Shown here piece by piece: positions 1,937-19,960 of a stretch of 54,801 nucleotides of DNA. The translations under genes were made by a program, and so were the position numbers. Origin of the DNA: Candidatus Amesbacteria bacterium GW2011_GWA1_47_20 (GTDB lineage Bacteria; Patescibacteriota; Microgenomatia; CAZETR01; Amesbacteraceae); NCBI GenBank assembly GCA_001002405.1, contig LCOA01000002.1, forward strand, positions 1-54,801, in the 5' to 3' direction. The notes beneath the pieces were generated by a model. That model saw nothing but the letters and a program-made list of their open reading frames with translations, was not told where the DNA came from and ran no database searches. The stretch's first letter is position 1. Each line of letters opens with the position of its first letter.

Positions 1937-1981
1937 AGTACCAGTTTATTACATTTTAACAGCTTTTCAAGTACCAGTTTA
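1937..1981. repeat. 12-nt direct repeat AGTACCAGTTTA x2 (1937-1948 and 1970-1981)
   Basis: Exact copies 33 nt apart. One abuts the ATPase ATG and the other contains the GT4 stop codon. Confidence 0.8.
1943..1970 (-). promoter_or_regulatory. Possible internal promoter upstream of the AAA ATPase gene
   Basis: Minus strand: TTGAAA (1970-1965), N16, TAAACT (1948-1943), N6, ATG 1936. Confidence 0.3.
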
Positions 1982-2968
1982 GTACTTATTCAGCGCTTCC
2001 TGGTAAACTTGCAAAGTTTCGGCAGCTGCTTTGGCCCAAGAAAACTTGGTAGCTTGGGTCGGGCCATGGTTGGATTTGGCGTTCTTGATAGCTCTGGCCA
2101 TGTCTTTAATGTCGGTGGGGTCAAAGTAAGTAGCGGCATCGCCGGCGACTTCAGGAAGCGAGGAGGTGCGGCTACAAGCCACGGGGGTGGCACAGGCCAG
2201 AGCTTCCACCACCGGCAGGCCGAAACCATCGGCTAGGGACGGCTGGCAATAGACAGTGGCCAAATTGTAAATATCCACCAGTTCTGCATCCGCTACAAAT
2301 CCCAACCGCCGCACATTTTGCAACGACATACCCTGCAAATGCTTCAGCTCCGGGTGGGAGAGGTCCATTTTTTCGAGTTCCTTGGCCTGACGGCCAACCA
2401 TAACCAACGGCAGTTTGGCTAGCCGAGCGGCAGTGATTAAATTGGGAATGTTTTTGTTGTAGTTGATGTCACCAGGCAGGTGGTATTTGTTTTTGGGTTT
2501 GGAAACATGTTTGAATATGGGATCAGCGGCTTCATATATCAGTTTGAGCTTGGCGTGGGGGATACCCAGATACTTGTAGATAGTTTTAACGCAATGATAG
2601 GAAACGGTGATCACCCGATCGACGTTGGCCAAAGCTAGTTTCTGCAACTGCAGATTGAACCAGCCGCGGATCCCCGGAGGAAAATGATCAGGAAATTCTA
2701 ACGGCATCACATCGTGGATTGTGACTATTGTTTTGGCATTCTTGATAATAGGCAGGGTGTGTTTAAAAAGATCGAAGTAAGGATAATGGATAATTTCTAA
2801 TTGACCTAATTGATCTAATCGACCTAAAGAATCAACTTCCAATATTTCGACGCCAAAGTTCTTTGCTTGTTTTTTAAGCTCTGGCAAGAGACGGCGAGTG
2901 TAGAAACCTACTCCGCGGACAGCGTTGGCGTCATGAAGGGGAGTCGTAACAAAACCAATTTTTATCAT
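1979..2968 (-). CDS. GT4-family (Glycos_transf_1) glycosyltransferase
   Basis: C-terminal PSLADGFGLPVVEALACATPV (EX7E-type motif). Preferred start is ATG 2968, which forms an ATGA overlap with the upstream stop; the track start 2983 is TTG. Confidence 0.8.
   Translation of the reverse strand: MIKIGFVTTPLHDANAVRGVGFYTRRLLPELKKQAKNFGVEILEVDSLGRLDQLGQLEIIHYPYFDLFKHTLPIIKNAKTIVTIHDVMPLEFPDHFPPGIRGWFNLQLQKLALANVDRVITVSYHCVKTIYKYLGIPHAKLKLIYEAADPIFKHVSKPKNKYHLPGDINYNKNIPNLITAARLAKLPLVMVGRQAKELEKMDLSHPELKHLQGMSLQNVRRLGFVADAELVDIYNLATVYCQPSLADGFGLPVVEALACATPVACSRTSSLPEVAGDAATYFDPTDIKDMARAIKNAKSNHGPTQATKFSWAKAAAETLQVYQEALNKY
2792..2828. repeat. 37-nt element built on a 9-nt period (TAATTGACC-like x3), copy A, inside the GT4 gene
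   Basis: aatttctaattgacctaattgatctaatcgacctaaa is 35/37 identical to 34542-34578. Encodes SLGRLDQLGQLEI. Confidence 0.9.
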
Positions 2969-6977: not shown

Positions 6978-8533
6978 GGCAGTCCCACCACCCGCAGGCC
7001 CGGTGCGCCATTGGGATATTTAATATCCCCGAGCATAATCAGATTGGGAATGGTGGCTAAATCAGACTCCGGCAGTTCATAGCGGTCACCGATCAAAATA
7101 GTGGAATTGAGGAGTCGGTCGTCGGGCAGAAAGAGTGGACGGAAAATAAATTTGCCGAAGCGATCTACGTGGCCCACGTCGCCGACGGGGCTAACAGCTA
7201 ACTGGCTAAATGGTTGATAATCCCGGGGGTCGATCTGCAAGTAAAAGAGAGTAAAAATATACGGCTGGCCAAGTTTGTCGGAAAAGATGACTTGCCGGTA
7301 TTGGTCTAGATGCTGTTTGACGATAGCCAGAACCGGTTTGTAAGGATATACCATGTCCACGGCGGTGAAATTGGAGGAATGAATATAGAATAAATCAAGA
7401 TAATAGACTAAGAAAAACAAGAGTATGAGAGTATAAGAGTATAAGAGGAGACGCCGACGAGACAATTGGGCTAGACCCATACCAGAAACAATGACTAGCG
7501 GCACGAGAAGCGGCAAGGAGCGGACGCCGGAAACGAGGTCGCGCGAAAGGGCGGAGGGCAAAGGAGCCAGGAGCAGCCAAGCAATGAGAAGTTTAGTTAG
7601 TGGGTTATTAGTTCGGAGTAAGACGACGAGTCCGATAAGAATTGTAAGGATTTCCGGGAGGTGGAAGTAGCCATAGTATGCAATTGAGTGGCGCAAATTC
7701 TGCCAGTCTCCGGCGAAGAATAAGAAATATGGGGAGAGGTGGTTTAGATATCTTTGAAGTACGCCCCTGCCCTGGTCTATTAGTTCTAAGTGAAAAAGAG
7801 AAAAGAGAAAAGGGTTACCATTGTCCTGACGTAGGATTTCAGCGACCGTGTCCGGACGGCGGGTGTAACTGAAGACGCTGAAGACTTTGAGCCGACCTGA
7901 TTGGGAAGCGAAACCCACCAGAATTGGAAGTATGAGTAAGAGTAAGAGGAAGAGGGGTTTGACCAGTAATTTTATGGCTGGGCGATAAATTAGCAAGAGA
8001 GTTAACATGAGAAGCGGAGTGAACATCTTGGCCCCCTGATAAGTCAGGAGCGTCAGGCCAAAGAAAAGGGCGGATGTCAGATAGCGGCGGCGGATGAACA
8101 ACAGTGTTGCCAAGGTCGTAAGGGTGAGTGCCACATTGGCCTCCCAGGCACCGCGGGAAAAATACAGCGACCAGGGGTTGATGGCCAGCAACCCGGCGGC
8201 AAAGACATTTCTGGTGAGCAAGTAAACTACGATAATAAGAAGTACCCCAAAAATGGCCGAGGGAAGACGAGTGGCGAATTCAGTTAAACCCAAAACGGAT
8301 ATTGAGGGGACAGCCAGGTAAGAATATAGAGCCGGCTTGTAATCGCCGAAGGATTTGAGAATCAAGGGCATGACTTGGGCGTATTCATCCCGGCCGGTCA
8401 AAAACAGCGAATAGGCGTTGTAGCCTAGAGCGGCCTCGTCCCAGGTAAAACCCAATGGCCGGGAGTCTAAGTGAAAAAGTCTTAGTCCAAGGCCAAGTAA
8501 AAGTATGAACGCAAGAATAATTCTATTTTTCAT
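6974..8533 (-). CDS. GT39-like GT-C membrane glycosyltransferase, paralog 2
   Basis: GFTWDEAALGYNAYSLFLTGRDEYAQVMPLILKSFGDYKPALYSYL. Start ATG 8533 (MKNRIILAF...) is preferred by analogy to the paralog N-termini; the track start is 8557. Confidence 0.8.
   Translation of the reverse strand: MKNRIILAFILLLGLGLRLFHLDSRPLGFTWDEAALGYNAYSLFLTGRDEYAQVMPLILKSFGDYKPALYSYLAVPSISVLGLTEFATRLPSAIFGVLLIIVVYLLTRNVFAAGLLAINPWSLYFSRGAWEANVALTLTTLATLLFIRRRYLTSALFFGLTLLTYQGAKMFTPLLMLTLLLIYRPAIKLLVKPLFLLLLLILPILVGFASQSGRLKVFSVFSYTRRPDTVAEILRQDNGNPFLFSLFHLELIDQGRGVLQRYLNHLSPYFLFFAGDWQNLRHSIAYYGYFHLPEILTILIGLVVLLRTNNPLTKLLIAWLLLAPLPSALSRDLVSGVRSLPLLVPLVIVSGMGLAQLSRRRLLLYSYTLILLFFLVYYLDLFYIHSSNFTAVDMVYPYKPVLAIVKQHLDQYRQVIFSDKLGQPYIFTLFYLQIDPRDYQPFSQLAVSPVGDVGHVDRFGKFIFRPLFLPDDRLLNSTILIGDRYELPESDLATIPNLIMLGDIKYPNGAPGLRVVGLP
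7421..7447. repeat. Octanucleotide tract (GAGTATGA GAGTATAA GAGTATAA GAG) in paralog 2
   Basis: Read directly. Encodes LLLYSYTLIL. Confidence 0.8.
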
Positions 8534-10001
8534 AAACAATAAAGGCCGGTTGACCATCGAGGAAATTAAATGTGGTTATCTCCCGGCCAGAAATTTTACT
8601 CTCGGGGCTGGTGACAACGAGCGTGTTTGGTTTAAACGTCAGTTGGCCAATTTCCCAATCGTTGACAAAAGTAAATTTATCCAGAGCGTTGACCCAGTAC
8701 CAGTTGGCGTGGTAATCCCATTGCTTGCGGAGTTGAAAATCGGCCGGGTTCCAGGGCCAGAAATAGGCCACAAATTCATGCGGTTCGCCATATTTTTTGG
8801 TAAAGATAATCTGATCGTAATCGGAATAGCGCTGTTTGATAAATTGAACTACTTTAGAGTAACCATATTGCCAAGACTGCGAATAGTTATTACGATAACT
8901 ATTCGCGGATACTAGATAGTAGATAGTAGATATTAGGAGACCCACGAAGAAAAGAGCCTTAACATTACGGCCGAAGCGGTCCAGACCATGAGCGATTAAG
9001 AGCATAGACAGAGGCAGCATAGGAATGGCCCGAAGGACATGAGGCGCATCTCGCGTCAAACTACCGGCAATCGGCGCAAGTAACAGCCATGCCCAGGAAA
9101 TTTTATTCAGCTTTAATAACCCTAGGTAAAAAAAGGGCAAACTGACCAAATAAAGCAGGCCGAAGTTTTGGATGCTGAACTGATAATGATCGCCGCCTTT
9201 GAGGAAGAGAAAGTTGGGAGAGAAGTAACTTAAGTAATTTTGACCGAAACGGTAGAGAAAATAAGTGGCCTTGTTGTACAGCAGCCGGCCCCCAGGACGG
9301 GATTGCAGTTGATCGATTTGGGCAATGGCACCGGAATCCAGGATGGTCAACCAGCTTAGTCTAGCTTGACCGGAAGGAGAGAGAAGTTGGATAACCATGG
9401 GGATAAATAAGAAAGCTGTTAGCAGATAGCTAATAGTCGTTAGCTTGGGACGATGGAGAAAAAGATAGGCGAGTAAAAACAACGGGCTGAAGACGCGGGC
9501 GGAATTGTAAGCCCAGACGGAAAGCCCCAGAAATAAGATGCCCAAATTTGTCTTGCGGACCAGCAAACAGCAAATGCCTATGGCAATAAATAATGCACCC
9601 ACATTGGCTTCCAGAGCAATACGGGATATCCACCAGGTCCAAGGGGAAATGGCGACCAAGACGGCTGAAGTGAGGCCAACGAAGGGAGAAGCCAGCCGCC
9701 AGCCCAAAAGATAGGTTATGATGATGAGTAACGTGCCGAAGACGATTGACGGCAGACGAACGAAAAAGGGAGAAATAGTGGCCAGGTAAACGTAGATGGG
9801 TAATTTGTAGTCTCCAAAGCTTCTGAAAATTGTGGGCAAGATCGTCCCCCACTCGTCCCGACCGGTCTGAAGAAGCGAATACGCGTTGTAACCCAAAGAA
9901 ACTTCGTCCCAATTGAGGCTGGGAGGAAGGAAGTTGCTGGCTACCAGCCGCAGAATCAGGCCGGCCGCCGCAATAAGTAAAAGCCACTTAACGTGAGACA
10001 T
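8523..10001 (-). CDS. GT39-like GT-C membrane glycosyltransferase, paralog 3
   Basis: SLNWDEVSLGYNAYSLLQTGRDEWGTILPTIFRSFGDYKLPIYVYL. ATG 10001. 46-nt overlap with the upstream gene end. Confidence 0.8.
   Translation of the reverse strand: MSHVKWLLLIAAAGLILRLVASNFLPPSLNWDEVSLGYNAYSLLQTGRDEWGTILPTIFRSFGDYKLPIYVYLATISPFFVRLPSIVFGTLLIIITYLLGWRLASPFVGLTSAVLVAISPWTWWISRIALEANVGALFIAIGICCLLVRKTNLGILFLGLSVWAYNSARVFSPLFLLAYLFLHRPKLTTISYLLTAFLFIPMVIQLLSPSGQARLSWLTILDSGAIAQIDQLQSRPGGRLLYNKATYFLYRFGQNYLSYFSPNFLFLKGGDHYQFSIQNFGLLYLVSLPFFYLGLLKLNKISWAWLLLAPIAGSLTRDAPHVLRAIPMLPLSMLLIAHGLDRFGRNVKALFFVGLLISTIYYLVSANSYRNNYSQSWQYGYSKVVQFIKQRYSDYDQIIFTKKYGEPHEFVAYFWPWNPADFQLRKQWDYHANWYWVNALDKFTFVNDWEIGQLTFKPNTLVVTSPESKISGREITTFNFLDGQPAFIVYEK
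8913..8936. repeat. Heptanucleotide tract (TAGATAG TAGATAG TAGATAT TAG) in paralog 3
   Basis: Read directly. Encodes LISTIYYLV. Confidence 0.85.
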
Positions 10002-11455
10002 GCCAAAGCCACCAGACTGGTAATGTTGCCGATGGTGCGGACGGGGGTATCGGTAAACTTCAGATTAATTTGGGTGGCTAGCGGCACGCGGGCAATGATT
10101 AGGCCCATGGGGCCGGAGGGAAACAGCTCGACTTCAGCTTTCCAGCCCGGAAAATAGACAATCGGATATTGAATTTTTCGGTAGGAGTCGGTAGTGAGAA
10201 GTACCTGTGGCCCGGTAGGCGCAAAAGACGTGGGTAACTCGGAGGCGGAACGCGGCCAAAAATCGTTTAGGGCAGAAGAGCGCTGTTCGTCCCAGAGCGG
10301 GCCGGAAAATTGCTCACGGTCTGTGATGCTGCGCCAGATGTCTGGCTTGAAAAAGCCAGCGTTAAGCAAGAGCAGAAGAGCAAGAGAGCAGGAGAGTATA
10401 AGTTTATGCGAAACCACTTTGACTATAGCACCGGAGGAGAGGGCCAGAAAGAAGGAGGCGGGGCCCAAAAAGCGCCAAGGAAACTGGACATAAGCCAAAG
10501 GAGGAAAAAGCTTCCAAATAAATTCCGACTTGCCGTGAGTGAGAAAAACGGCAAAGAAGCCAAAGAGGGTAAACACGAGGGACTTTTTGCGAAGAAGAAG
10601 AAATAAGGGAACGAGCCATTGCAGGTAGCCCACAGAAAAACTCATGGTGTCGTTGGGGCCCCAGACGGAGCCGCCGTAGCCCCAAAAGCGGGAAACAAAC
10701 AGCTGCTTGAGAGTGGTCCAATGCAATTGATATGAGTAATAGTCAGTGGTGGTGCGGTTTAAAGTGACCAGATGACTTTCGAAAATCACCGGGAGTAGAT
10801 AAAAAGCGCTTAATAGAAAAACTGCGGCCCCGGCACCCAACAGTTGAAAAACGGGGATGGGGAATTTTCTTAACGCCCAAAAACCTAGGAAAGGAGCGAT
10901 CATGAGAGCCGAGAGATTGTGGGTAATGACCAGAATAGTGGCCGCAATGATCAAACCCCATAGATCACGCAGGCGCCGTCGGTCTAAAAAATTATCCAGA
11001 AAAAGAAAGATGAAAGGAAAAAGAGCCAAAGCATACGCCTCATTGAGCGAGCCACGGACCCACACGTCTACCGCCCGGTAAGGGGCGTAGACATAAAACA
11101 TGGCTGCCACCAGACTCCCTGGGTTGCCCCAATACTTTTTGCCGAGCAAGTACATGCCCACTGCCGAAACTAGGAGCGTGAGAATGAAATTGGCTTTGAC
11201 GGAGTCGATAATTTGCAATCCAAAGATATGAAATGCCTGACCGATCCAGTAAGGAAACTGGCCGTAGAAGTTAAAGACCGGCTCGCCGTAGCCCATCCCG
11301 GCGTCCGGCGCCCAACGGCAAGGAAATGCCTGACACTTGCTAAATTCAAACTGACGGAAGACGTGGAAATCGTGCATCGTAAAAATGCCGGAGCGGAACA
11401 TGAGAGAAAATGAGGGGATTAAGAGGATTAAGCAGATTAAGAGAAATTTGTTCAT
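9956..11455 (-). CDS. PTPS-related/YfhO-like polytopic membrane protein (putative GT-C-like)
   Basis: N-terminus MHDFHVFRQFEFSKCQAFPCRWAPDAGMGYGEPVFNFYGQFPYW matches the signature I associate with PF10131-type membrane proteins. Paralog of 33530-35188. ATGA overlap at 11452-11455. Confidence 0.55.
   Translation of the reverse strand: MNKFLLICLILLIPSFSLMFRSGIFTMHDFHVFRQFEFSKCQAFPCRWAPDAGMGYGEPVFNFYGQFPYWIGQAFHIFGLQIIDSVKANFILTLLVSAVGMYLLGKKYWGNPGSLVAAMFYVYAPYRAVDVWVRGSLNEAYALALFPFIFLFLDNFLDRRRLRDLWGLIIAATILVITHNLSALMIAPFLGFWALRKFPIPVFQLLGAGAAVFLLSAFYLLPVIFESHLVTLNRTTTDYYSYQLHWTTLKQLFVSRFWGYGGSVWGPNDTMSFSVGYLQWLVPLFLLLRKKSLVFTLFGFFAVFLTHGKSEFIWKLFPPLAYVQFPWRFLGPASFFLALSSGAIVKVVSHKLILSCSLALLLLLNAGFFKPDIWRSITDREQFSGPLWDEQRSSALNDFWPRSASELPTSFAPTGPQVLLTTDSYRKIQYPIVYFPGWKAEVELFPSGPMGLIIARVPLATQINLKFTDTPVRTIGNITSLVALACLTLSGFYLLRRPA
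11417..11443. repeat. In-frame 9-nt tract (GATTAAGAG GATTAAGCA GATTAAGAG)
   Basis: Encodes LLI-CLI-LLI in the N-terminal TM segment of 9956-11455. Confidence 0.8.
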
Positions 11456-12993
11456 GGGAGTTTTTGGGCGACTTTGATGGCCGGCCGGGAAGAGGGGTAA
11501 TCGATGTGGAAATATTCAGGGAAATCGGGAGAGAAATCTTCGGGTTTACCGATGTACAAGGTGGGGATTGAAACAGAATCTTGGGGGTAAATTACTCCAA
11601 ATCGATATTTACCCAGATAATAGCCGTCAAACTGATCCAGGAATTTAACATTCCGGGGCCAGTTCTGGGAAGCTTTCTGGTACTCTTGTGGGTCGAACTT
11701 GGTATAAAAAGCCACAAAGATATGGGGTTCGGAAAGCGAGCGGCTGAAGCGGACGTCCGAAAACCTGTCCGAAAAAGCCTGCAATCGGGGCATGAGCTCG
11801 CGCCAACCGTAAGACATAGAAGGAGCAATGACATACGGCGAATGATAAAAGTAATCTTCGGCAAAAAATACAAAACTGATAACGTAGGCCCCGAACACCA
11901 GGACCAACCAGCGCCGGGGAAGATGAGTTATGGCGGTAGCCAGAAGAATGATGAGCCAGGGAAGCATGATGACCGCCCGGTTGGCAGCGGCTCCCGGGCC
12001 TTTGGCCAAAGCTGCGGGAAGAGGAGCCAATAGAAGAAGGGCTATGAGAAGCGGGGAAATTTTGGGGCGCCGAATAATTAAATAAGCAAGGAGCGGCAGT
12101 TCAATTAAATAAAGCACTCCCCTGCCCGGCGACATGCCGTAAAAAGGTTCACCAGCACCGGAAGTGAATAGGAAATTGGGGGAAAAATAAGAAATGTAGT
12201 TTTGAGCTAGGATCGAAAAAGAATAAACTAATTTATTAGAAAACACGCGGGCGAATACGTCCGGTAAACCCTGGGCCCGGGCTTCGAAACGGCGAGTGGC
12301 TACCCCTAGCCAATTGTCGGTGGGGCTAAAAATGCTGACGTCGGCCACCCGAGCGGAAACCAAGCCTATGAGCGAAACTACTAGAGGAATAATTAATACA
12401 GGCTTGAATTTGTCCCGGAAATAAACGAACAGAACCACAAGAATCAACGGCAGGATTAACCTGGCTGAGTGATACGAGTAAGCGGCGGCGGTCAGAAACA
12501 GCGCGGAAAGCATGGGATGACTGTCGAGAAAAAAATACAGGCCCAGAGGTAAAAGAAAAGTGGCCAGATTGGCTTCGAATGCCCCGCGAGACATTTGAAT
12601 ATGCCAGGGGTTGATGGCCATCAGCAACGCCGCCAGTTGACCAGTTTGCCAGTTAATCAGTTTTTTGGCCAGAAGATACACAGCCGCGATGGCCAGAATG
12701 CCGAAGATGGCATTAGGCAAGCGGACAGCAAATTCCGTCAGACCGAGAATTTTGACCGATGGGATGGCGAGGAAAGCATACAGAGGCAGTTTGTAATCTC
12801 CAAACGAGCGCAGGTTGGTGAAAAACAGCTGCCACCAGGGGGTGCCCCACTCGTCCCGGCCAGTCTGAAGCAGTGAGTAGGCGTTGTAGCCGAAAGCCGC
12901 TTCATCAGGTGTGAATCCGGCAGGCAAGCGAGCTAGCCAAAGCAAACGGGCAAGTGATCCGATAACCAGGGCCACAATCAGTAAATGGCGCAT
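11452..12993 (-). CDS. GT39-like GT-C membrane glycosyltransferase, paralog 4 (operon head)
   Basis: GFTPDEAAFGYNAYSLLQTGRDEWGTPWWQLFFTNLRSFGDYKLPLYAFL. First gene of the long minus-strand operon; a -10 box lies 8 nt upstream of the ATG. Confidence 0.8.
   Translation of the reverse strand: MRHLLIVALVIGSLARLLWLARLPAGFTPDEAAFGYNAYSLLQTGRDEWGTPWWQLFFTNLRSFGDYKLPLYAFLAIPSVKILGLTEFAVRLPNAIFGILAIAAVYLLAKKLINWQTGQLAALLMAINPWHIQMSRGAFEANLATFLLPLGLYFFLDSHPMLSALFLTAAAYSYHSARLILPLILVVLFVYFRDKFKPVLIIPLVVSLIGLVSARVADVSIFSPTDNWLGVATRRFEARAQGLPDVFARVFSNKLVYSFSILAQNYISYFSPNFLFTSGAGEPFYGMSPGRGVLYLIELPLLAYLIIRRPKISPLLIALLLLAPLPAALAKGPGAAANRAVIMLPWLIILLATAITHLPRRWLVLVFGAYVISFVFFAEDYFYHSPYVIAPSMSYGWRELMPRLQAFSDRFSDVRFSRSLSEPHIFVAFYTKFDPQEYQKASQNWPRNVKFLDQFDGYYLGKYRFGVIYPQDSVSIPTLYIGKPEDFSPDFPEYFHIDYPSSRPAIKVAQKLP
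12633..12664. repeat. Octanucleotide tract (CCAGTTGA CCAGTTTG CCAGTTAA TCAGTTTT) in paralog 4
   Basis: Same tract and same protein position as 6626-6657. Confidence 0.85.
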
Positions 12994-12998
12994 GCAGC

Positions 12999-13031
12999 TT
13001 GATTATACGGGGGTGGCCAGCGTAATATCAA
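12999..13031. promoter_or_regulatory. Compact bidirectional promoter, each -35 overlapping the other strand's -10
   Basis: Plus strand: TTGATT (12999-13004), N18, TAATAT (13023-13028), N6, ATG 13035. Minus strand: TTGATA (13031-13026), N18, TATAAT (13007-13002), N8, ATG 12993. No SD on either side. Confidence 0.5.
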
Positions 13032-13034
13032 TTG

Positions 13035-14255
13035 ATGTGGCCGGGGATTGTAGCGGCGGGAGTGCTGGTAGTTAAGTTAGGATTGATGTTGGGGAAACCA
13101 TTGGGAGTAAGCGTGGCAATGGCTGAGACTTTTGGAAATTTGGGGTGGGGTGAGATGCAAATCAGAGTGTGGGGGTGGCTGGTGCAGGTGGTGATTGTGA
13201 TATTACTGGCCAAAAAAACTAGATCCGGATGGGTGGCGTTAATCGCCGCGGCTAATCCTTGGCTGAACACTATTTCTATGTGGCACGTATGGGAAACGAC
13301 AGCGCTGGCCGGCGCAGTCGGAGTGTGGGCGGCTAAGCACACGTGGCAAAAAGCGATAGGTGCAGTGGTTGTCGTATTGGCCTTGGCGGCCACTTGGACA
13401 AATTTAAGCAAAATTTCATCCGACAATTTAGCGGCCAAATTAAATTGGAATTTTTTGGGTCAGCAGGTAGACGAAATCCAGAAAATCAATTTCCAAGCCA
13501 CTCAAAAAAACTATATGCTTCCGGCAATTGTGCGCAAGATCTTATATAACAAGCCAGGATTGGCCTTAAATACGATTGTTCAAAGAAGCGTAGCGCTGAT
13601 GGATTTTGAGCAATGGACAGCACCACAGGCGGCCTGGACAGCGACCGGATTAAGCGGCCTACCGCCCAAAGGGTTGCTGCCCTTAATTTACTATTGGGAT
13701 ATCCCCTTGTTGATTTTTACGATCGTAATTTTTGACAAGAAGAGGGTGAAGTGGTGGCTAGTCGGTGGGTGGCTGGGGGGCATTTTTTTGGACAAGAAGT
13801 TTTTTACAGTTGGAGGAGTGTTGTTTATCCCGGCAATTGTGGTGCTGGTAGCCGAAGCCGTGAAACGTTTGGATAAGCGTTTGGTATTGGTACTATATCT
13901 AGCGGGCACAGGGTTTTTCTTTAAAGAAATGTTCTTCAATCAATTGAAGTGGCAATATTCGGACGTATATCTGTACCGACAGACGGCCATGTGGTTAAAA
14001 AACAACTTAGCGGCTGACGCGCGGGCGGCAGTGACAAACAAATTTGGGCCGATGGACGTGATGCTGAAATTTTACAAAGTGCTGCCGAATTCCAATATCG
14101 AAGTGGGTGAATTTACTCCCAGCCCCGGAAAAGTCTATATTGGATTGCCCAAAGAAATGCGGGGTATTCCGGAAGACAAAATCGTCACAAGAATTGAAGC
14201 GGATGACGAGCTGGTTTATGGATACGGAAAGGGCTTATGGATCGCAAAGTACTAA
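13035..14255 (+). CDS. N-terminally truncated GT39-like paralog lacking the catalytic first loop
   Basis: Aligns to the paralogs from the AANPW..W(E) region onward (ALIAAANPWLNTISMWHVWETTALAGAVGVW vs ALLLAISPWHLHFSRGGWEVNVATTLMLIGVW; LYNKPGLALNTIV vs LHNRPVLYTIQFL). It has no WDE...GRDE...SFGDYKP segment. ATG 13035 lies 6 nt after a TAATAT box. Confidence 0.6.
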   Translation: MWPGIVAAGVLVVKLGLMLGKPLGVSVAMAETFGNLGWGEMQIRVWGWLVQVVIVILLAKKTRSGWVALIAAANPWLNTISMWHVWETTALAGAVGVWAAKHTWQKAIGAVVVVLALAATWTNLSKISSDNLAAKLNWNFLGQQVDEIQKINFQATQKNYMLPAIVRKILYNKPGLALNTIVQRSVALMDFEQWTAPQAAWTATGLSGLPPKGLLPLIYYWDIPLLIFTIVIFDKKRVKWWLVGGWLGGIFLDKKFFTVGGVLFIPAIVVLVAEAVKRLDKRLVLVLYLAGTGFFFKEMFFNQLKWQYSDVYLYRQTAMWLKNNLAADARAAVTNKFGPMDVMLKFYKVLPNSNIEVGEFTPSPGKVYIGLPKEMRGIPEDKIVTRIEADDELVYGYGKGLWIAKY

Positions 14256-15628
14256 TCATTACTATTTTGGTAGTGGGAGCAGCGCTGCGGCTGGCTTGGC
14301 TGGATAAATCACCGGGGTCGGTAAATTGGGACGAGGCGGCCTTGGGCTACAACGCGTATTCTTTGTGGAAAACGGGGGCGGACGAATACGGAACAAAATG
14401 GCCGCTGGCTTTGCGATCGTTTGATGACTACAAACCCCCGCTGTATGCCTATTTAACGGCACCTGTCGTAGGAATATTTGGACTCAACGAAATAACCACC
14501 CGGCTGATATCTGCCCTGGCCGGGGTAGCCAGTGTTGGATTAGTGTATGTGATAGCCAAAAAACTGGTGGGGGAAAAAGAGGGATTGGTAGCGGCAGGGT
14601 TAATGGCAATTGAGCCCTGGGCGATTTTTTACTCCCGGGGGGCATGGGAAGCAAACTTGTCTCTGGCCGTATTTTTGACCAGCGTGTGGCTGATATTGAC
14701 CCGGCGAAATCTGGCCGGAATGATAATAGCCGGGATAAATGTTTTTTCTTATCATTCAGCCAAAATTTATTTGTGGCCGCTTTTAGTTTGGGGCCGGAAA
14801 AAGATGGGGGTGGTAATAGCAGTGGCGTTATTCACCATTGCCATGAGCAGTGGAGGATGGGCCAGGTGGACGTCCGCCGGAGGGAACTGGTGGGAGGCGG
14901 GCCAGAAATATTTCTCGTATTTTTCCCCGGCTAATCTGTTTGTGCGGGGTACGCCAGAACTTAACCAGCGGGTGGACGGGTTTGGCCTATATTATGGATG
15001 GGAGATATTTGCCTGGGCTATCGGGCTAGTGTGGCTGGTTAGGAATTGGCGGGAGAATAAAATTTTGGCTATGTGGCTAATCCTGGCTCCCCTACCGGCA
15101 ATCATTACCAGGAGCTGGTTTAACCCGGTGCGGGTGCTGCCATTGTGGGTTGCTCATACCATACTAGTTGCCATCGGCCTGCGGCGACTGACTGGCTGGC
15201 TGAAGATAATTATTGTCCCCTGGGCCGTAATTAACCTGGCGTGGTTTGGGTTGGCAGTCTTGTGGCAAATGCCGTACAGCCGTTACGGCGACTGGCAATG
15301 GGGGTTTAAAGAAGTGGTGCAGATTATTTCACCGGTATTGGACAAATATGATCAGGTGGTGTGGGAAACCGGACAGGCTCAACCATACATCTTCGCTTTG
15401 TTCTACCTGAAATATCCGCCGGAAGAATATCAGAAGGCACCGCGCCAGGGTTATGACTTCGGTAAATTTGTATTCCGGAAAATTTATTGGCCGGACGATA
15501 GAAATTTGAAAAATACTTTGTTTATTGGAGGAGTGTATAGCTTGCCGGAAGAGGGGGCTATCGGGAGAACCTGGGATCCGCAAGGATACGAATCAGCCCG
15601 TATACAAGCAACCCCCACACAACCATAA
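14237..15628 (+). CDS. GT39-like GT-C membrane glycosyltransferase, paralog 5
   Basis: SVNWDEAALGYNAYSLWKTGADEYGTKWPLALRSFDDYKPPLYAYL. 19-nt overlap with the preceding truncated paralog. Confidence 0.8.
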   Translation: MDRKVLIITILVVGAALRLAWLDKSPGSVNWDEAALGYNAYSLWKTGADEYGTKWPLALRSFDDYKPPLYAYLTAPVVGIFGLNEITTRLISALAGVASVGLVYVIAKKLVGEKEGLVAAGLMAIEPWAIFYSRGAWEANLSLAVFLTSVWLILTRRNLAGMIIAGINVFSYHSAKIYLWPLLVWGRKKMGVVIAVALFTIAMSSGGWARWTSAGGNWWEAGQKYFSYFSPANLFVRGTPELNQRVDGFGLYYGWEIFAWAIGLVWLVRNWRENKILAMWLILAPLPAIITRSWFNPVRVLPLWVAHTILVAIGLRRLTGWLKIIIVPWAVINLAWFGLAVLWQMPYSRYGDWQWGFKEVVQIISPVLDKYDQVVWETGQAQPYIFALFYLKYPPEEYQKAPRQGYDFGKFVFRKIYWPDDRNLKNTLFIGGVYSLPEEGAIGRTWDPQGYESARIQATPTQP

Positions 15629-16085
15629 ACAGAGGATCGCGAGTGAGGGGGGCGAGATTGAGAGACAAGCCGGAAGTACGATAGTAAGCCCGAAAGCCAT
15701 TTTCAATTTTGACGGATGGCGAGGAGGATGTGGTGGTTAGAGTCAGGGGTTGATTGACGGAGTCGGAAATGGGAGCAAACTGCAGACGGATATCGGAAGG
15801 GTCGCCGATGTTACGACCGGAAAAATTTACTTGGCGCAAGACCTGGCCGGTTGCGGTGCTGATGGTAAATACAAAACCGGACGTATCGGATAAGTCCGGA
15901 TTCTTCATACGCAGGAGAATAATGTTTAAGCCGGAGTGAGTGGGAGTAAAAGTAAATGGCCGGGTTTCAGCCAGCGGCAAATAAGCACTGCCGGGAACTT
16001 CTGTGTCCAGCCGGTTGCGGCTGGCAAGCGAAGCCAGCAATGAACTTACGAGGACGATGAACGGTCCGAGAAGAATAAGGCGCAT
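15558..16085 (-). CDS. Hypothetical membrane-anchored protein with Ser/Thr-rich beta-type ectodomain
   Basis: 175-aa ORF with N- and C-terminal hydrophobic segments. I recognise no family. Its 3' end overlaps the convergent gene by 71 nt. Confidence 0.4.
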   Translation of the reverse strand: MRLILLGPFIVLVSSLLASLASRNRLDTEVPGSAYLPLAETRPFTFTPTHSGLNIILLRMKNPDLSDTSGFVFTISTATGQVLRQVNFSGRNIGDPSDIRLQFAPISDSVNQPLTLTTTSSSPSVKIENGFRAYYRTSGLSLNLAPLTRDPLFMVVWGLLVYGLIRILADPRFSR

Positions 16086-17212
16086 AGGCTAATCCACAGG
16101 CTGACTCCTACTAGAACGGAGTGGAACAGGCTTTGCAAAAGAGGATTGACGAAAGGCGGTAGAAAAAGAATTTGAGGATTAAGGGGACTAATTAGTCCCC
16201 AGGTGAGAAATTTGTCGGGAAAAAGAAGAATGGTACCCATGGCGGAGGTAAAAAAAACCGCCAGAGATAACCATTCAAAGCGCAAGATAATAAACGGCAG
16301 GGACCACAGCAGCCATTGGGGGTGGAAATGGGACAATACTACCGGCAGTAGAGATGCGGCCAGAAAATAACTGGGTAAGCGGTGAATTTGGCCGCGGTGC
16401 AAAACACCCGCAACCAGAAACAGCATGGTCATAATCACCGGCACCAAATATAAATTCTCGGCGTAGCCTAATGGCAGCGCCAACTGCAGCACCCTTTGGG
16501 TCAGACCGGAAGTCAACGTATCGGAGTAAAAGGCCGGGGTGGCGAGAAACGGGGCCACAAATAGCAGATACGGCGCAATGCCCGCGGCAAATATTAGGGC
16601 GGAGCGCTTGAGACTGGTGGTAGATAAGAGGGCCAGAAACGGCAAAAACAGCAAGGGGTAGGTTTTGAAGGCGGCTGCCAGTCCCAAAAGAAGAGCTGCT
16701 AAAAACGGTTTGGGCTTAGCTATTACCAGCGCCAGGACGGTAAGCATCACCGGAAGAATATCGATTTGGCCCATGAAGCCGACGGCGTAAATAGTAAGGG
16801 GATTGAAAAACCAGATCCAGGGAATTTCCTTGCGCGAAGAGATTTTGGACAGCGTCCAACCCGTGGCCAGCAGAGCTAGAATGAGAGGTGTTTTGATCAG
16901 AAACAGGTACCGGAAAATACCGGCTACATCCACGGCGTCGTTGCCCATAGCCAACCAGGAAGCAAAACCCGGACCGGCCAAAAAATTAATAACGGGGTAC
17001 AGCAAACCCAGAACAAAATAGGCCAAGGGCGGATAAACAAATGAGCCGGCAGGAATGGGGTGAGCAGCCGTATAGCTATAGATATTAAATACGCCTTGGG
17101 AGAGAAACCCCGCCAGAGAATAAATTATTTTGATATCCGGATGGAAGAAAAAGGGGGCGATGAAAAAATAAAAGACAGCCGCAACCAGAAGGGGGCGTTT
17201 AACGTTTCGCAT
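16046..17212 (-). CDS. Polytopic GT-C-like membrane protein (DUF2029/Gpi18-related type)
   Basis: Many TM segments, YPPLAYFVLGLL and AAAFKTYPLLFLPFL motifs. Paralog of 25625-26830. ATG 17212 (MRNVKRPLL) preferred over the track start 17248. Confidence 0.45.
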   Translation of the reverse strand: MRNVKRPLLVAAVFYFFIAPFFFHPDIKIIYSLAGFLSQGVFNIYSYTAAHPIPAGSFVYPPLAYFVLGLLYPVINFLAGPGFASWLAMGNDAVDVAGIFRYLFLIKTPLILALLATGWTLSKISSRKEIPWIWFFNPLTIYAVGFMGQIDILPVMLTVLALVIAKPKPFLAALLLGLAAAFKTYPLLFLPFLALLSTTSLKRSALIFAAGIAPYLLFVAPFLATPAFYSDTLTSGLTQRVLQLALPLGYAENLYLVPVIMTMLFLVAGVLHRGQIHRLPSYFLAASLLPVVLSHFHPQWLLWSLPFIILRFEWLSLAVFFTSAMGTILLFPDKFLTWGLISPLNPQILFLPPFVNPLLQSLFHSVLVGVSLWISLCALFFSDRSSSS

Positions 17213-18362
17213 ACCGCCATGATAACCAAATAAAGGAGGCCAGCGCAAGTAAAATGAGAAGTTGGATGTTGAGGGTTGAGGAGAGCCAGGTGACCAAGAT
17301 GGGCCAACGGGGGTACCACCAGTTGTGATATAAGTTGAGCCAGTGAAAAAGGGAGAGATAAATAAATGCCGGTAACAGGCGGCGGTCCCGGGCCAACCAG
17401 AAAACTAAAAAGACCAGAGCTGGCAACAGGTAGCGCTCGTGCATGCGGGTGAGGAAAAAGAAAGCGGACATGGTAATTAGAGCAGCGATGGGAAAAACAG
17501 AAAAGCGTTTACGGGTAAAAACGAAAAGCAGGAGGGCGGCAAAAAGCACATATCCCCAGAGGCGGTAATTGGCGTCGGGAATTTTGCCCAAACCCATGGT
17601 TAAGGCCCAGAAATTAAATGCGTGATCTACCACGTAATCCGAACCCGAACCGGTTTGGATGATGTGCCAGTACGTGGCCAGGGGCGGAGTGGCAAACGGT
17701 AAAAATGCCAGTAGAAACATAATCAACCCAACGGCCGCGGATTCGAGACTTTGAGCAATGCCGAAACGGCGGTAAAAAAATAGAACATACAAAGGAATAA
17801 AAATTATGGAAGACTGTTTAGTAAGCAGAGCCAGAGTAAAAGAAACGGCCGAAAGGAACGGGCGACGGGTGAGGAAAGCGGCTACCAGAAAAAATACCGG
17901 CACGGACTCGATTTGGCCCCAGGAGGCACTGTTGTAAAAAATAGCCGGATTAAAAAGAATCAGGGCGGCCAACCAGCGTTTTTTCGTAGCAGTATATACC
18001 AGCCAAGCAAGACCTATATCTGCGGTCATGGCCCAAATTTTGTGAAACGCCGGCTGGGTGTCTTGGTCTTGCAGCCACCAAATGATTTGCGAGGGGAAAA
18101 GGGGGTATTTAAGATTTAGGTTCCATGCCGTGCGAGATACAGTATCGAAAAGACCTTGGGACAGGGTGAAAAAAAACAAAGTAACCGGGGGATAAGTGGG
18201 AGTGAGAGTACCGTAGCGGGACATGAACTCCCGCTGATAGATCCCTGCCGGACCAAGAGAAAGAATGTCTCTACCCCAAGAAACATGGTTGTTGACATCA
18301 CCAGAGTAAATTTGGGTACTAAGGAATAATCTAAGAACCAGACCGAGGATAAAAAGTGTCAT
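17199..18362 (-). CDS. Polytopic GT-C-like membrane protein (Gpi18/ALG-like loop)
   Basis: SGDVNNHVSWGRDILSLGPAGIY...TYPPVTLFFF loop followed by many TM segments. ATG 18362 forms an ATGA overlap with the upstream stop; the track start 18458 adds a non-hydrophobic extension. Confidence 0.45.
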   Translation of the reverse strand: MTLFILGLVLRLFLSTQIYSGDVNNHVSWGRDILSLGPAGIYQREFMSRYGTLTPTYPPVTLFFFTLSQGLFDTVSRTAWNLNLKYPLFPSQIIWWLQDQDTQPAFHKIWAMTADIGLAWLVYTATKKRWLAALILFNPAIFYNSASWGQIESVPVFFLVAAFLTRRPFLSAVSFTLALLTKQSSIIFIPLYVLFFYRRFGIAQSLESAAVGLIMFLLAFLPFATPPLATYWHIIQTGSGSDYVVDHAFNFWALTMGLGKIPDANYRLWGYVLFAALLLFVFTRKRFSVFPIAALITMSAFFFLTRMHERYLLPALVFLVFWLARDRRLLPAFIYLSLFHWLNLYHNWWYPRWPILVTWLSSTLNIQLLILLALASFIWLSWRYAKR

Positions 18363-19960
18363 TTTCTGGCAACCAGATACAAAATAGGCTGGTTGTAGGC
18401 GTTGGTGCTGGTAAACAGGACTTGGATATTGTCGGGAGGAGTACGGCGCCAATCCCAATCGCCGGCCACATTGTCCCGCTGGGAAATAACATACAAACTG
18501 TTGGGAAGCAAAGATTCCATCCAGTTTGATTTATTGAAGTTGCCAAAGAAGTATTTACCGTCTAAAGAAAATCCGTCGTAATTGGGAACAATGTTGACCT
18601 GAGGCTGATCCAGGGTGAATTGGCGATGAAATTTGGCCGGTGAGTAACTCGTCCAAAACAGGAAGCGAATTAAAGACGGCTCATAAGTGTTGTTGATAAA
18701 GACGCGGGAGTAATTGGGGGCCAGACGAGCCAGCTCGGTCATAGCCTGCTGAAATCCCACATTCCACCACCGCCAGGAAGATTTGGCGTAATGGGCAACG
18801 TAGTAATGGGCCAGGTACACAAAATAAGAAATAAAGAATACAAGGAATAAGATATTAAGAACCCGAGGTAATTTGCGGGTAACTAATACTACGCCGGCAC
18901 CGGTAGCGACAGCTAAGGGTGGAAGCATTAAAAACAAGCGAGTGGCGTGGTAGCCCCCGTCGGAAGTAAGAGCGGCTGGGAGCGGGGCTAAAAACAACCA
19001 AGTCAACCACAACCATTGCTTACGGGAAGCCAGATACCACAGGCCGATTAGCACGAAAGGGAAAGAGATGGGTAAAAGCTCGCCGACGATCTGCATGCTC
19101 TGGCGGTAATCGGGGTCGCCGCGAATGAATAAAAAGTCAGTGGAAAACGGCCGGAGATAATTAGCTACGACAGCAGAAGCGTAAGTTTCGAGTTTGTTGT
19201 GCCATAAACGCCCGTCTTCGGCCTGGAGAAGGTTTAAGTTTTTGAAAATTTCCGGATTGGCAAAAATGCTTAATCCCCCGAAGCGGCCCCGGGCGGGACC
19301 AGAGATAATATTAAAAATTAAGGGAACAAGAAGTAAAGAAAAAAGAAGTAAGGAAATAAGTTTGGGGCGAACGCGGGTAAGAAAAATGAGTGTCACAAAC
19401 CATAAAGGAACAAAAAGGACGGCGGTGCTGTAGGTGTACATCGAAAGGGCAAAGGGCAAAGGACAAAGGGCAAAACGACGTTTGAGAAAGAGCAAAGTGC
19501 CAAGCATGACCAGGTCGAGCATGAAAACTACTTCGTAAGCGGCCCGCGAGTAGTAGATGTGCCAGGGAGTCACCGCCAAAACCAGAGAGCAGAAGAGCGA
19601 GAGAGTATAAGAGCGAGAGATATGATAAACGAGGAGAAATAAAATGAGCGACCCAAGAGTACCAAAAATAACTTCAGGCAAACGGACGCCCCAGACGGAA
19701 TTTCCCAGGGCGGCGATGGTAGGAACTGTGGCGTACATGAGAAGTGGGGCGCGCCATTCCGCCAGAGAATGAATGTAAGTAGGCAAGATCTGGCCATATA
19801 AGTCCCTTCCGGTTTGCAGAAGTGACCGGGCCTGGTATCCCACGTCAACCTCATCACCAAACAATTCCGGGGGGGCGATCTGCAGCAGCCCAACACGTAA
19901 ACCTAGGCTAAGTGCTAAAATGAGGCTTAGAATCCAACTCATGCTATCTGTCATTATCAT
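18359..19960 (-). CDS. GT39-like GT-C membrane glycosyltransferase, paralog 6 (operon head)
   Basis: PPELFGDEVDVGYQARSLLQTGRDLYGQILPTYIHSLAEWRAPLLMY plus VTPWHIYYSRAAYEV. Possible starts at 19960, 19954 or 19942 (MSWILSL...). Confidence 0.75.
   Translation of the reverse strand: MIMTDSMSWILSLILALSLGLRVGLLQIAPPELFGDEVDVGYQARSLLQTGRDLYGQILPTYIHSLAEWRAPLLMYATVPTIAALGNSVWGVRLPEVIFGTLGSLILFLLVYHISRSYTLSLFCSLVLAVTPWHIYYSRAAYEVVFMLDLVMLGTLLFLKRRFALCPLPFALSMYTYSTAVLFVPLWFVTLIFLTRVRPKLISLLLFSLLLVPLIFNIISGPARGRFGGLSIFANPEIFKNLNLLQAEDGRLWHNKLETYASAVVANYLRPFSTDFLFIRGDPDYRQSMQIVGELLPISFPFVLIGLWYLASRKQWLWLTWLFLAPLPAALTSDGGYHATRLFLMLPPLAVATGAGVVLVTRKLPRVLNILFLVFFISYFVYLAHYYVAHYAKSSWRWWNVGFQQAMTELARLAPNYSRVFINNTYEPSLIRFLFWTSYSPAKFHRQFTLDQPQVNIVPNYDGFSLDGKYFFGNFNKSNWMESLLPNSLYVISQRDNVAGDWDWRRTPPDNIQVLFTSTNAYNQPILYLVARK
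19444..19478. repeat. Heptanucleotide tract (AAAGGGC AAAGGGC AAAGGAC AAAGGGC AAAACGA) in paralog 6
   Basis: Encodes FALCPLPFAL. Same alignment position as the 14-nt duplication at 6483-6512. Confidence 0.85.
19928..19933 (+). promoter_or_regulatory. -10-like box for the GT2 gene at 19941
   Basis: TAGAAT, N7, ATG 19941. It lies inside the N-terminal codons of the divergent gene. Confidence 0.3.

What the first reader, a model, noticed from the sequence alone, without database searches (positions are those of the whole stretch)
13035..14255. Promoter-proximal GT39-like paralog lacking the whole catalytic first loop, paired with an intact paralog
This ORF aligns with the family from the ...NPW...WE... 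region to the C-terminus. It starts after the segment that carries TM1 and the WDE...GRDE...SFGDYKP loop. It has its own leaderless-type promoter and overlaps the next, intact paralog (14237-15628) by 19 nt, so the two are probably co-translated. Eukaryotic PMTs function as dimers. A catalytically dead partner subunit or acceptor-binding adaptor is therefore a reasonable inference. The alternative is a decaying gene.
Basis: partly seen in the sequence, partly recalled or inferred. Interest (0 to 1): 0.6.

Follow-up and report, generated by a model that had tools for sequence, protein, structure and literature searches.

The report
Loop-less GT-C partner gene, conserved pair
This gene is not a dying copy but a conserved, stripped-down relative of membrane sugar-transferases that has lost its catalytic loop and always sits directly upstream of one particular working-looking copy, which has itself lost a different loop segment that this gene keeps, so the two probably work only as a pair.

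Summary
The ORF 13035-14255 (406 aa), the 41-bp spacer and the 19-nt overlap with 14237-15628 are all as described. The anatomy is not. TM1 is kept. The missing piece is an internal ~41-residue deletion of extracellular loop 1, with DE replaced by A28-M29. A second ~30-residue deletion removes the canonical TM5-6 hairpin.

Homology to the window's GT-C paralogs shows only by profile comparison (hhalign 99.4%, E 3e-21). BLASTP, Pfam, NCBIfam and PDB sequence searches found nothing.

The gene is not decaying. Orthologs have the same length, dN/dS is 0.05-0.26, and 187 representative proteins match. It belongs to an unannotated family ("A") of Patescibacteria; named relatives are Candidatus Amesbacteria. 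Every A gene examined abuts or overlaps one GT-C orthogroup ("B"). Among 41 related genomes, 12 have both genes and 29 have neither.

New here: B is not fully intact. All 18 B proteins lack the R-x-x-x-N-K helix of the long periplasmic loop. Canonical paralogs keep this segment (most with the motif), and A conserves it best.

Best reading (0.55) is an obligate A-B pair with complementary losses, A being non-catalytic.

The scan had already noted similar dead GT-C copies on other DNA (e1-825917, e1-854514, e1-1301773).

The parts
12994..13034 (.). 41-bp divergent promoter spacer. Plus strand: TTGATT (12999-13004), 18 nt, TAATAT (13023-13028), with the ATG 6 nt after the -10. Minus strand: TTGATA, 18 nt, TATAAT.
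   Evidence: Sequence read directly. The minus-strand site scores 11 of 12. The block 'TTGATTATA...TTAATATCAAT' is conserved in L001, L005 and L002. There are no transcript data.
13035..14255 (+). Gene A (P0001, 406 aa): a reduced GT-C-fold membrane protein inferred to have 9 TM helices. It has no Pfam or NCBIfam family.
13035..13094 (+). Retained TM1 (residues 1-20). K14 aligns with the invariant R18 of the canonical paralogs.
   Evidence: AF2 helix 2-20. Alignments. dN/dS for residues 1-40 is 0.07-0.21.
13095..13151 (+). Residual extracellular loop 1 (residues 21-39). The short helix 27-36 is all that remains of about 63 residues.
   Evidence: P0002 has helices 31-46 and 69-81 plus a hairpin in the same place.
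13116..13121 (+). Codons A28-M29 (GCA ATG), at the position of the canonical D32-E33 'DE' motif.
   Evidence: Close orthologs have E-M or E-L. Across the family the position reads D 10, E 9, other 21 of 40. The exact 406-aa protein occurs on 18 public contigs.
13392..13697 (+). Long periplasmic loop (residues about 120-221), equivalent to EL4 by inference. It carries the family's best conserved motifs: DEIQK, RKILYNK (13533-13553), DFEQW, TGLSGLPPKG.
   Evidence: Conservation. dN/dS is lowest here, 0.08-0.10. Residues 193-211 have low pLDDT, suggesting a flexible loop. hhalign pairs RKILYNK with the canonical R...NK.
13941..14252 (+). C-terminal periplasmic alpha/beta domain (residues 303-406), ending in ...DELVYGYGKGLWIAKY.
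   Evidence: Secondary structure. It aligns with the C-terminal domain of the paralogs.
14237..14255 (+). 19-nt overlap between the end of A (...GLWIAKY*) and the start of B (MDRKVL...). The core TTATGGAT is conserved.
   Evidence: six loci. Overlap or close abutment is also seen.
14237..15628 (+). Gene B (P0002, 463 aa): an ArnT-like GT-C. Loop 1 is intact (W31 D32 E33 ... SFDDYKP), but the long periplasmic loop is shortened: R210 to Y225 is 14 residues and the R-x-x-x-N-K helix is absent.
   Evidence: (ArnT 5ezm, E 1e-6, TM 0.58).
11452..12993 (-). Divergently transcribed canonical GT-C paralog (513 aa, PMT_2). It is the conserved third member of the arrangement in the A1-type and A5-type loci.

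Best explanation
Gene A (13035-14255) encodes a reduced GT-C-fold membrane protein that no longer catalyses glycosyl transfer through the canonical loop-1 acid. It serves as the dedicated partner of the GT-C encoded by the overlapping downstream gene B (14237-15628).

The two genes are transcribed from one promoter and are translationally coupled. They have undergone reciprocal losses.
- A lost most of extracellular loop 1: the DE motif, the TGxDExG turn and the SFGDYKP/juxtamembrane helix 2. It also lost the TM5-6 hairpin.
- A kept, and conserves most strongly, the long periplasmic loop with [RK][KR]xxYNK, DFEQ and SGLPPKG, and the C-terminal domain.
- B kept a near-invariant loop 1 but lost the R-x-x-x-N-K segment of that same long loop.

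The inferred mechanism is a heteromer. In it, A's long loop supplies in trans what B lacks. By analogy with EL4 of solved GT-C enzymes, this loop would bind the lipid-linked sugar or the acceptor. B supplies the catalytic loop.

Shown: homology, the anatomy of the deletions, selection, synteny, co-occurrence and the reciprocal pattern.
Inferred: physical association, loss of activity in A, and which substrate the retained loop contacts.
For: 1. Homology over the whole length with the canonical paralogs: hhalign 99.4%, E 3.2e-21. The AF2 model has pLDDT 81.5, and its top 18 PDB matches are all GT-C enzymes.
2. Loop 1 is cut from 63 to 22 residues and DE reads AM. About 4-6 of 24 residues invariant in 17 canonical sequences are kept. 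Across 40 family representatives the DE position is unconserved: D 10, E 9, other 21. It is 17/17 in the canonical set. The DE motif is a hallmark of GT-C enzymes and is needed for PMT activity (PMC8698208).
3. The gene is not decaying. dN/dS is 0.05-0.26 overall and below 0.21 in every region. The 406-aa form occurs in 2 of 3 other same-genus genomes and in several metagenome assemblies.
4. The A->B overlap is conserved with the same TTATGGAT core down to 32% identity. The A->B arrangement holds in three deep subfamilies.
5. Co-occurrence: 12 of 41 related genomes have a B-type gene (478 bits or more), and all 12 have A upstream. The other 29 have neither.
6. Reciprocal loss: the R210-Y225 spacing is 13-35 aa with no RxxxNK in 18 of 18 B proteins, against 38-50 aa in 12 of 12 canonical paralogs. 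Every A subfamily keeps [RK][KR]xxYNK.
7. In solved GT-C enzymes the donor and acceptor sites are built from EL1 and the long TM7-TM8 loop (PMC7801869).
Against: - No direct evidence of a complex exists.
- Operon neighbours are gained and lost together anyway, so co-occurrence is weak evidence of physical interaction. The genomes are also related, not independent.
- Many family members, including the closest orthologs, keep a D or E at the first position of the DE motif. Some deeper members (L041) keep DE itself. Parts of the family may therefore still be enzymes.
- D190, R167 and K168 are nearly invariant. They could form an alternative active site.
- The RxxxNK motif is not invariant among canonical paralogs: 6974-8557 lacks it and 38081-39676 has only a degenerate form.
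- The equivalence of the long loop to EL4 rests on secondary-structure counting, not on superposed coordinates.
- The Foldseek support for A's fold is weak: E 5e-3 and TM 0.43 or less.
Confidence: 0.55

Rival explanations
1. A is still an active GT-C-type transferase with a relocated or minimal active site. Candidates are the D/E kept after TM1 in most relatives, or the invariant D190/R167/K168 of the long loop. It would act before or after B in the same pathway, without forming an obligate complex.
For: - The family's own motifs are very strongly conserved: D190 in 40/40, R167 in 39/40, N172 in 39/40 and G338 in 40/40. dN/dS is lowest in that loop.
- Most relatives keep D or E at the first DE position.
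- Deeper members keep DE and a long loop (L041).
- From my own knowledge, not tested here: some GT-C-like enzymes, such as the O-antigen ligase WaaL, use residues in a later periplasmic loop.
Against: - The window protein has Ala at the acid position, and the family tolerates A/S/L/Q/N/R there.
- Loop 1 was shortened independently at least about 4 times on a quick tree with modest support. That is hard to reconcile with a loop-1-dependent active site.
- About 18 of 24 canonical invariants are gone.
- This reading does not explain why B has lost exactly the segment that A keeps.
Confidence: 0.28
2. A has a non-enzymatic job that does not require binding to B. Examples are handling (flipping or presenting) the lipid-linked sugar, or chaperoning the acceptor glycopolymer or protein. 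It is merely co-expressed with B.
For: - A GT-C fold without the catalytic acid could still bind lipid-linked sugar through the long loop (inference).
- B's weak match to TIGR03663, 'flippase activity-associated protein Agl23', shows that relatives of this family are annotated with such roles (the score is below the cut-off).
Against: - A generic handler would be expected next to other GT-C paralogs too. Instead A pairs with one orthogroup only, in 12 of 12 genomes.
- The reciprocal loss in B argues for direct complementation.
Confidence: 0.12
3. A is a decaying remnant (pseudogene) of a GT-C paralog, or an artefact of mis-assembly that removed the loop.
For: It shows large internal deletions relative to its paralogs, loss of the DE motif, and no Pfam hit.
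Against: - The frame is open.
- dN/dS is 0.05-0.26.
- The identical architecture appears in independent assemblies: L001, L005, L007, L008, L027, L028.
- The exact protein occurs on 18 contigs.
- 187 representative relatives were found, 43 of them at E < 1e-30.
Confidence: 0.02

Closest known systems
ArnT (lipid A aminoarabinose transferase, GT83; PDB 5ezm/5f15) and PMT_2-type GT-C_A enzymes
   Same: The multi-TM GT-C fold is shared, as are the N-in topology, the long periplasmic loop before the last four TMs and the C-terminal periplasmic domain. B matches ArnT at E 1e-6 with TM 0.58. A matches it at E 9e-3 with TM 0.43. A is homologous to the window's PMT_2 paralogs.
   Different: A lacks the DE/acidic motif, both juxtamembrane helices of loop 1, two TM helices and most family invariants. 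It matches no PMT/PMT_2 model.
Eukaryotic Pmt1-Pmt2 (and POMT1-POMT2) heterodimers of GT39 protein O-mannosyltransferases (PDB 6p25)
   Same: These are paralogous GT-C chains that function only as a pair. 6p25 is among B's structural matches.
   Different: In Pmt1-Pmt2 both chains keep the DE motif and a complete set of loops (PMC8698208, and my own knowledge). Here the two chains have complementary deletions and one lacks the acid. No MIR domain is present.
PIGU, the GT-C-fold non-catalytic subunit of GPI transamidase (PDB 7wld_U, 8imx_U)
   Same: It is a GT-C-fold protein that has lost transferase chemistry. It is thought to hold the lipid-linked substrate for a catalytic partner (my own knowledge). 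It appears among B's fold matches (ranks 34-35).
   Different: PIGU's partner is a protease-like transamidase, not a paralogous GT-C. It is eukaryotic, and no reciprocal loss in the partner is involved.
GtfA-GtfB of streptococcal serine-rich-repeat adhesin glycosylation (my own knowledge)
   Same: A glycosyltransferase is paired with an inactive paralog of the same fold, which binds the acceptor and is required for activity. The genes are adjacent.
   Different: Those proteins have the soluble GT-B fold and use nucleotide-sugar donors in the cytoplasm. There is no membrane component and no lipid-linked donor.

Membership tests
PMT_2 / PMT (Pfam PF13231 / PF02366; GT39/GT83-like GT-C_A glycosyltransferases) | Significant match to the family HMM | tested here: not met
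   P0001 matched no Pfam family at E <= 0.01 and no NCBIfam family at E <= 1. Eight further family members and two related upstream partner proteins gave no significant family match, only sub-threshold chance hits. P0002 matches PMT_2 at 3.5e-10.
PMT_2 / PMT (GT-C_A glycosyltransferases) | Common descent and GT-C fold | tested here: met
   hhalign against 8 window paralogs gave 99.4%, E 3.2e-21, 361 columns. The top 18 Foldseek PDB hits are all GT-C, but weak: E 5e-3 to 0.2, TM 0.43 or less.
PMT_2 / PMT (GT-C_A glycosyltransferases) | Acidic DE (or DxD) motif at the start of extracellular loop 1 | tested here: not met
   A28-M29 lies opposite D32-E33. The position is unconserved in 40 relatives but is 17/17 in canonical sequences.
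PMT_2 / PMT (GT-C_A glycosyltransferases) | Loop 1 of about 60 residues with two juxtamembrane helices | tested here: not met
   A has 22 residues and one 10-residue helix. P0002 has 63 residues, two helices and a hairpin.
PMT_2 / PMT (GT-C_A glycosyltransferases) | Transfer of sugar from a polyprenyl-phosphate donor | not testable with these tools
   This needs a biochemical assay.
Non-catalytic GT-C-fold partner subunits (pseudo-glycosyltransferases, e.g. PIGU) | GT-C fold with the catalytic residues lost, under purifying selection | tested here: met
Non-catalytic GT-C-fold partner subunits (pseudo-glycosyltransferases, e.g. PIGU) | Stable physical complex with a catalytic partner | not testable with these tools
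   Only indirect evidence exists: the conserved overlap, strict co-occurrence and the reciprocal loop loss.
Pseudogene | Disrupted frame, or dN/dS near 1, or erratic presence in relatives | tested here: not met
   The frame is open. dN/dS is 0.05-0.26. The gene is conserved in the genus and beyond.

The most novel reading that the evidence does not exclude
A and B together form a split GT-C enzyme. After duplication the two chains lost complementary halves of the periplasmic active-site architecture: loop 1 in A and the RxxxNK part of the long loop in B. A single composite donor/acceptor site is therefore assembled in trans across a heterodimer interface. This would be an arrangement not described for any GT-C glycosyltransferase.
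Probability: 0.3. Interest if true: 0.8.

Novelty: new variant of a known kind. Interest (0 to 1): 0.6.

Why it matters
GT-C enzymes build or decorate cell-surface glycans in all domains of life. Solved examples work as single complete chains or as dimers of complete chains.

A conserved pair in which each paralog lacks what the other keeps would be a natural experiment. It would show which periplasmic elements can be supplied in trans, and it would give a handle on how the long flexible loop of GT-C enzymes engages the lipid-linked donor.

The family also fills an annotation gap. It has 187 representative clusters, no Pfam or NCBIfam model, and no name from any of the sources checked. It sits inside the large GT-C arrays that take up a notable share of these very small Patescibacteria genomes. 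Some gene callers also start the gene at M29, which removes TM1.

If the partner reading is wrong and A is active, it would be a GT-C without a loop-1 active site. That would also be of interest.

Tried and rejected
- Pairwise BLASTP and phmmer of P0001 against all 47 window ORFs gave nothing better than E about 0.02-0.03.
- Pfam and NCBIfam gave no family.
- PDB sequence searches with profiles A1 and A2 gave no hit.
- A second word-indexed homolog search, using the alignment as query, added only one protein.
I reran it with A5.
- A phylum-wide genome sample of 400 genomes searched with A4 found only the window's own family.
- Literature searches for CPR/Patescibacteria GT-C partners or inactive GT-C heterodimers returned nothing relevant.
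I therefore could not check transcripts, reads at codon 28 or the leaderless start.
- Model coordinates are not exposed. I could not superpose A, B and ArnT to place the RxxxNK helix in 3D.
- No multimer prediction was available.
- I considered and rejected N-terminal truncation: TM1 is present. Searching upstream for loop remnants is moot, because the deletion is internal and the 41-bp spacer is conserved in six assemblies.
- I considered that A might be a tandem duplicate of B specifically. hhalign of A against the B profile is weaker (94.5%, E 8e-8, C-terminal half only) than against the mixed paralogs, so A's closest paralog is unresolved.
- A monotonic link between A's loop-1 length and B's loop length holds in the window's lineage (22/14-15, 41-59/25-26, about 60/35). 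It does not hold in the second clade, so I claim only the orthogroup-wide pattern.

Full report
**What is there**

The ORF 13035-14255 (+) is open and encodes 406 residues, kept as P0001. It starts 41 bp from the divergently oriented GT-C gene 11452-12993. Its last 19 nt overlap the ATG of the next gene, 14237-15628, kept as P0002, 463 aa.

P0002 and most large neighbours hit Pfam PMT_2. P0001 hits nothing in Pfam or NCBIfam. BLASTP and phmmer against all window ORFs give nothing better than E about 0.02-0.03.

The window lies on a 692-kb genome that is 92% complete. Named relatives of the family are Candidatus Amesbacteria. The region is a large glycosylation island with GT2, GT4, GT87-like and many GT-C genes.

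**Homology and true anatomy**

P0001 has 12 word-index homologs and 187 representative-cluster homologs, 43 of them at E < 1e-30. A profile of the family (A1) aligns with a profile of eight window GT-C paralogs (A2) at 99.4% probability and E 3.2e-21. The alignment covers P0001 residues 7-383.

That alignment and two MAFFT alignments agree on three points.
- TM1 is present. It is residues 2-20, and K14 lies opposite the invariant R18.
- 'KPLGVSVAMAETFGN' aligns with 'SPGSVNWDEAALGYN'. Then about 41-43 columns are missing, and 'LGWGEMQIRV' aligns with 'FGLNEITTRL'. Loop 1 was shortened internally from about 63 to 22 residues, and D32-E33 became A28-M29 (codons 13116-13121).
- A second internal deletion removes the canonical 'SYHSAK' TM5-6 hairpin. 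It is about 30 residues relative to P0002, and long-form relatives carry about 40 residues there. The invariants Y172 and A175 fall in the gap.

AlphaFold2 gives pLDDT 81.5 and pTM 0.81. It predicts TM1, a single 10-residue loop-1 helix (27-36), then TM2. It also predicts a roughly 100-residue helical periplasmic loop whose most conserved stretch (193-211) has low confidence, four more TMs, and a C-terminal alpha/beta domain.

The P0002 model has the full loop 1, with helices 31-46 and 69-81 plus a hairpin. Foldseek puts only GT-C enzymes in the top 18 for P0001, but weakly: E 5e-3 to 0.2 and TM 0.43 or less. For P0002 it gives strong matches, with ArnT 5ezm at E 1e-6 and TM 0.58.

By helix counting and the positive-inside rule, I infer 9 TMs with an N-in, C-out topology for P0001 and 11 TMs for P0002.

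**Loss of the canonical catalytic apparatus**

Take the residues invariant in 17 canonical sequences. P0001 keeps P127-W128, G250, R89, probably E138, and R18 as K. It lacks D32, E33, G37, Y38, A40, L43, G47, D49, S61, R134, Y172, R210, Y225, G238, P285 and R299.

Across 40 family representatives the first DE position reads D 10, E 9, other 21. The second reads E 16, Q 14, other 10. R134 is never kept. The DE motif is described as a hallmark of GT-C enzymes, and mutating it abolishes or strongly reduces PMT activity (PMC8698208).

A quick ML tree built without the loop columns places the window's short-loop form in a 10-member clade. That clade is sister to long-loop forms. Parsimony needs about 4 changes of loop state, but support is modest.

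**The gene is not decaying**

Same-length orthologs (70-76% identity) occur in several independent assemblies and in 2 of 3 other genomes of the genus. The exact 406-aa sequence is on 18 public contigs.

Pairwise dN/dS is 0.05-0.26, against 0.05-0.11 for the downstream gene. Every region is constrained. The periplasmic loop is tightest at 0.08-0.10, and TM1 plus residual loop 1 is loosest at 0.07-0.21.

The family's own near-invariant residues are Q149, R167, K168, N172, K173, D190, S207-G208, P211-K212-G213, G338-P339, Y347 and W402. They lie in the long loop and the C-terminal domain, not in loop 1.

**Pairing with one GT-C orthogroup**

In every locus recovered, the family member (A) is followed on the same strand by a GT-C of one orthogroup (B). 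B proteins begin 'MD..' and have an almost invariant loop 1, '(S/P)(V/L)NWDEAALGYNAYSL..TG.DE(Y/F)G...LRSFDDYKP'.

In the window's subfamily and in an independent metagenomic subfamily, the genes overlap by 19-31 nt. The core TTATGGAT reads ..L-W-I.. in A and M-D in B. In a third, deeper subfamily, whose A proteins end 'SFGNGDxIW', the genes overlap by 4-22 nt or are 1-15 nt apart.

I searched the 41 related genomes with a B profile. Twelve genomes gave a best hit of 478-771 bits, and all twelve have an A gene immediately upstream. The other 29 peak at 383 bits or less, which is paralog level, and have no A. The one exception is G019, whose B gene is a truncated 224-aa copy below its A gene. 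These genomes are relatives, and the genes are neighbours. This shows co-inheritance, not interaction.

**Reciprocal loss (new observation)**

B is not simply intact. The segment between its invariant R210 and Y225 varies by lineage.
- It is 14-15 residues in the window and its close relatives.
- It is 25-26 residues in sister genera.
- It is 13-28 residues in the metagenomic subfamily.
- It is 35 residues in the deep subfamily.

That covers 18 of 18 B proteins, none with an R-x-x-x-N-K motif. In 12 of 12 canonical paralogs the segment is 38-50 residues and usually carries 'R(h)(h)xNK'.

All three A subfamilies keep this motif as [RK][KR]xxYNK, within their best conserved block. hhalign independently pairs A's RKILYNK with the canonical R...NK.

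In solved GT-C enzymes the acceptor and lipid-linked donor sites are formed by EL1 together with the long TM7-TM8 loop (PMC7801869). By helix order, the loop in question occupies that position. This is an inference.

So A has lost the loop-1 half and B part of the long-loop half of the periplasmic architecture.

**Interpretation**

The best-supported reading (0.55) is an obligate, co-translated A-B pair. In it A is non-catalytic in the canonical sense and complements B.

The main rival (0.28) is that A remains an enzyme with a non-loop-1 active site. In its favour are A's very strong own motifs and the D/E kept by many relatives. A non-enzymatic role independent of B is less likely (0.12). Decay or mis-assembly is effectively excluded (0.02).

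None of these readings is tested biochemically.

**Promoter**

The 41-bp spacer carries TTGATT, 18 nt, TAATAT on the plus strand. The ATG follows 6 nt after the -10, which is compatible with a leaderless transcript. The minus strand carries TTGATA, 18 nt, TATAAT (11 of 12). The block is conserved in L001, L005 and L002. Function is untested.

**Relation to earlier scan notes**

The scan had already flagged a 'catalytically dead copy' in a Candidatus Amesbacteria GT-C array that shares words with P0001 (e1-825917). It had also flagged stripped-down GT-C partners in other genomes (e1-854514, e1-1301773).

This report adds four things: the corrected anatomy, the family-wide pairing with one orthogroup, the independent loop losses, and the reciprocal loss in the partner.

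Noticed in passing
window 39570-40847 (-) with 38081-39676 (-): This may be a second degenerate GT-C placed directly upstream of a canonical GT-C. The 425-aa product has no Pfam hit but aligns with the paralog profile at 97.8%, E 7e-13. It reads 'TTDYFLHSYRAWTLLRFGRDEVG' (D-Y where DE is expected) and appears to lack TM1 and the PW motif. It could be another partner-type pair.
   Followed up: partly
window 12994-13034: The divergent promoter is symmetrical: each -35 overlaps the opposite -10 (TTGATTATA ... TAATATCAA). The same block is conserved in relatives at 49-76% protein identity.
   Followed up: partly
window 13119 (M29) versus 13035: Some public gene calls (JGI/Logan, P0003, 378 aa) start this gene at M29, which removes TM1. 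The 406-aa form is the one conserved in orthologs, and codons 1-40 are under purifying selection.
   Followed up: yes
L041 (G019:C2) 827-1501 (-): In one related genome the B-type gene downstream of an intact 514-aa A-type gene is only 224 aa long in its open frame. It may be a truncated or frameshifted B beside an intact A, which would be an exception worth checking against the obligate-pair idea.
   Followed up: no
L027, L028 (CAYHGA010000002.1, CAYHNU010000001.1): Two MAG records carry 72-73% identical orthologs and the same gene arrangement but are titled 'uncultured Gammaproteobacteria bacterium'. The other named relatives are Candidatus Amesbacteria. The label is probably a taxonomic error.
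   Followed up: no
window 16046-17248 (-) and 17199-18458 (-): These two further membrane proteins in the array are not of the PMT_2 family. 16046-17248 matches GT87 just under the cut-off (E 2.3e-5, 24.7 against 25 bits). 17199-18458 shows only a weak GT-C-like N-terminal similarity (46%, E 2e-4).
   Followed up: partly
L057 (G018:C2) 1197-2555 (+): This is a further short-loop A-type protein in the deep 'SFGNGDxIW' subfamily. It is 452 aa and reads 'FAPYPSEFGPLWMGKTRIPGL' directly into TM2. Its subfamily relatives have long loops, so it may be another independent loop-1 loss.
   Followed up: no
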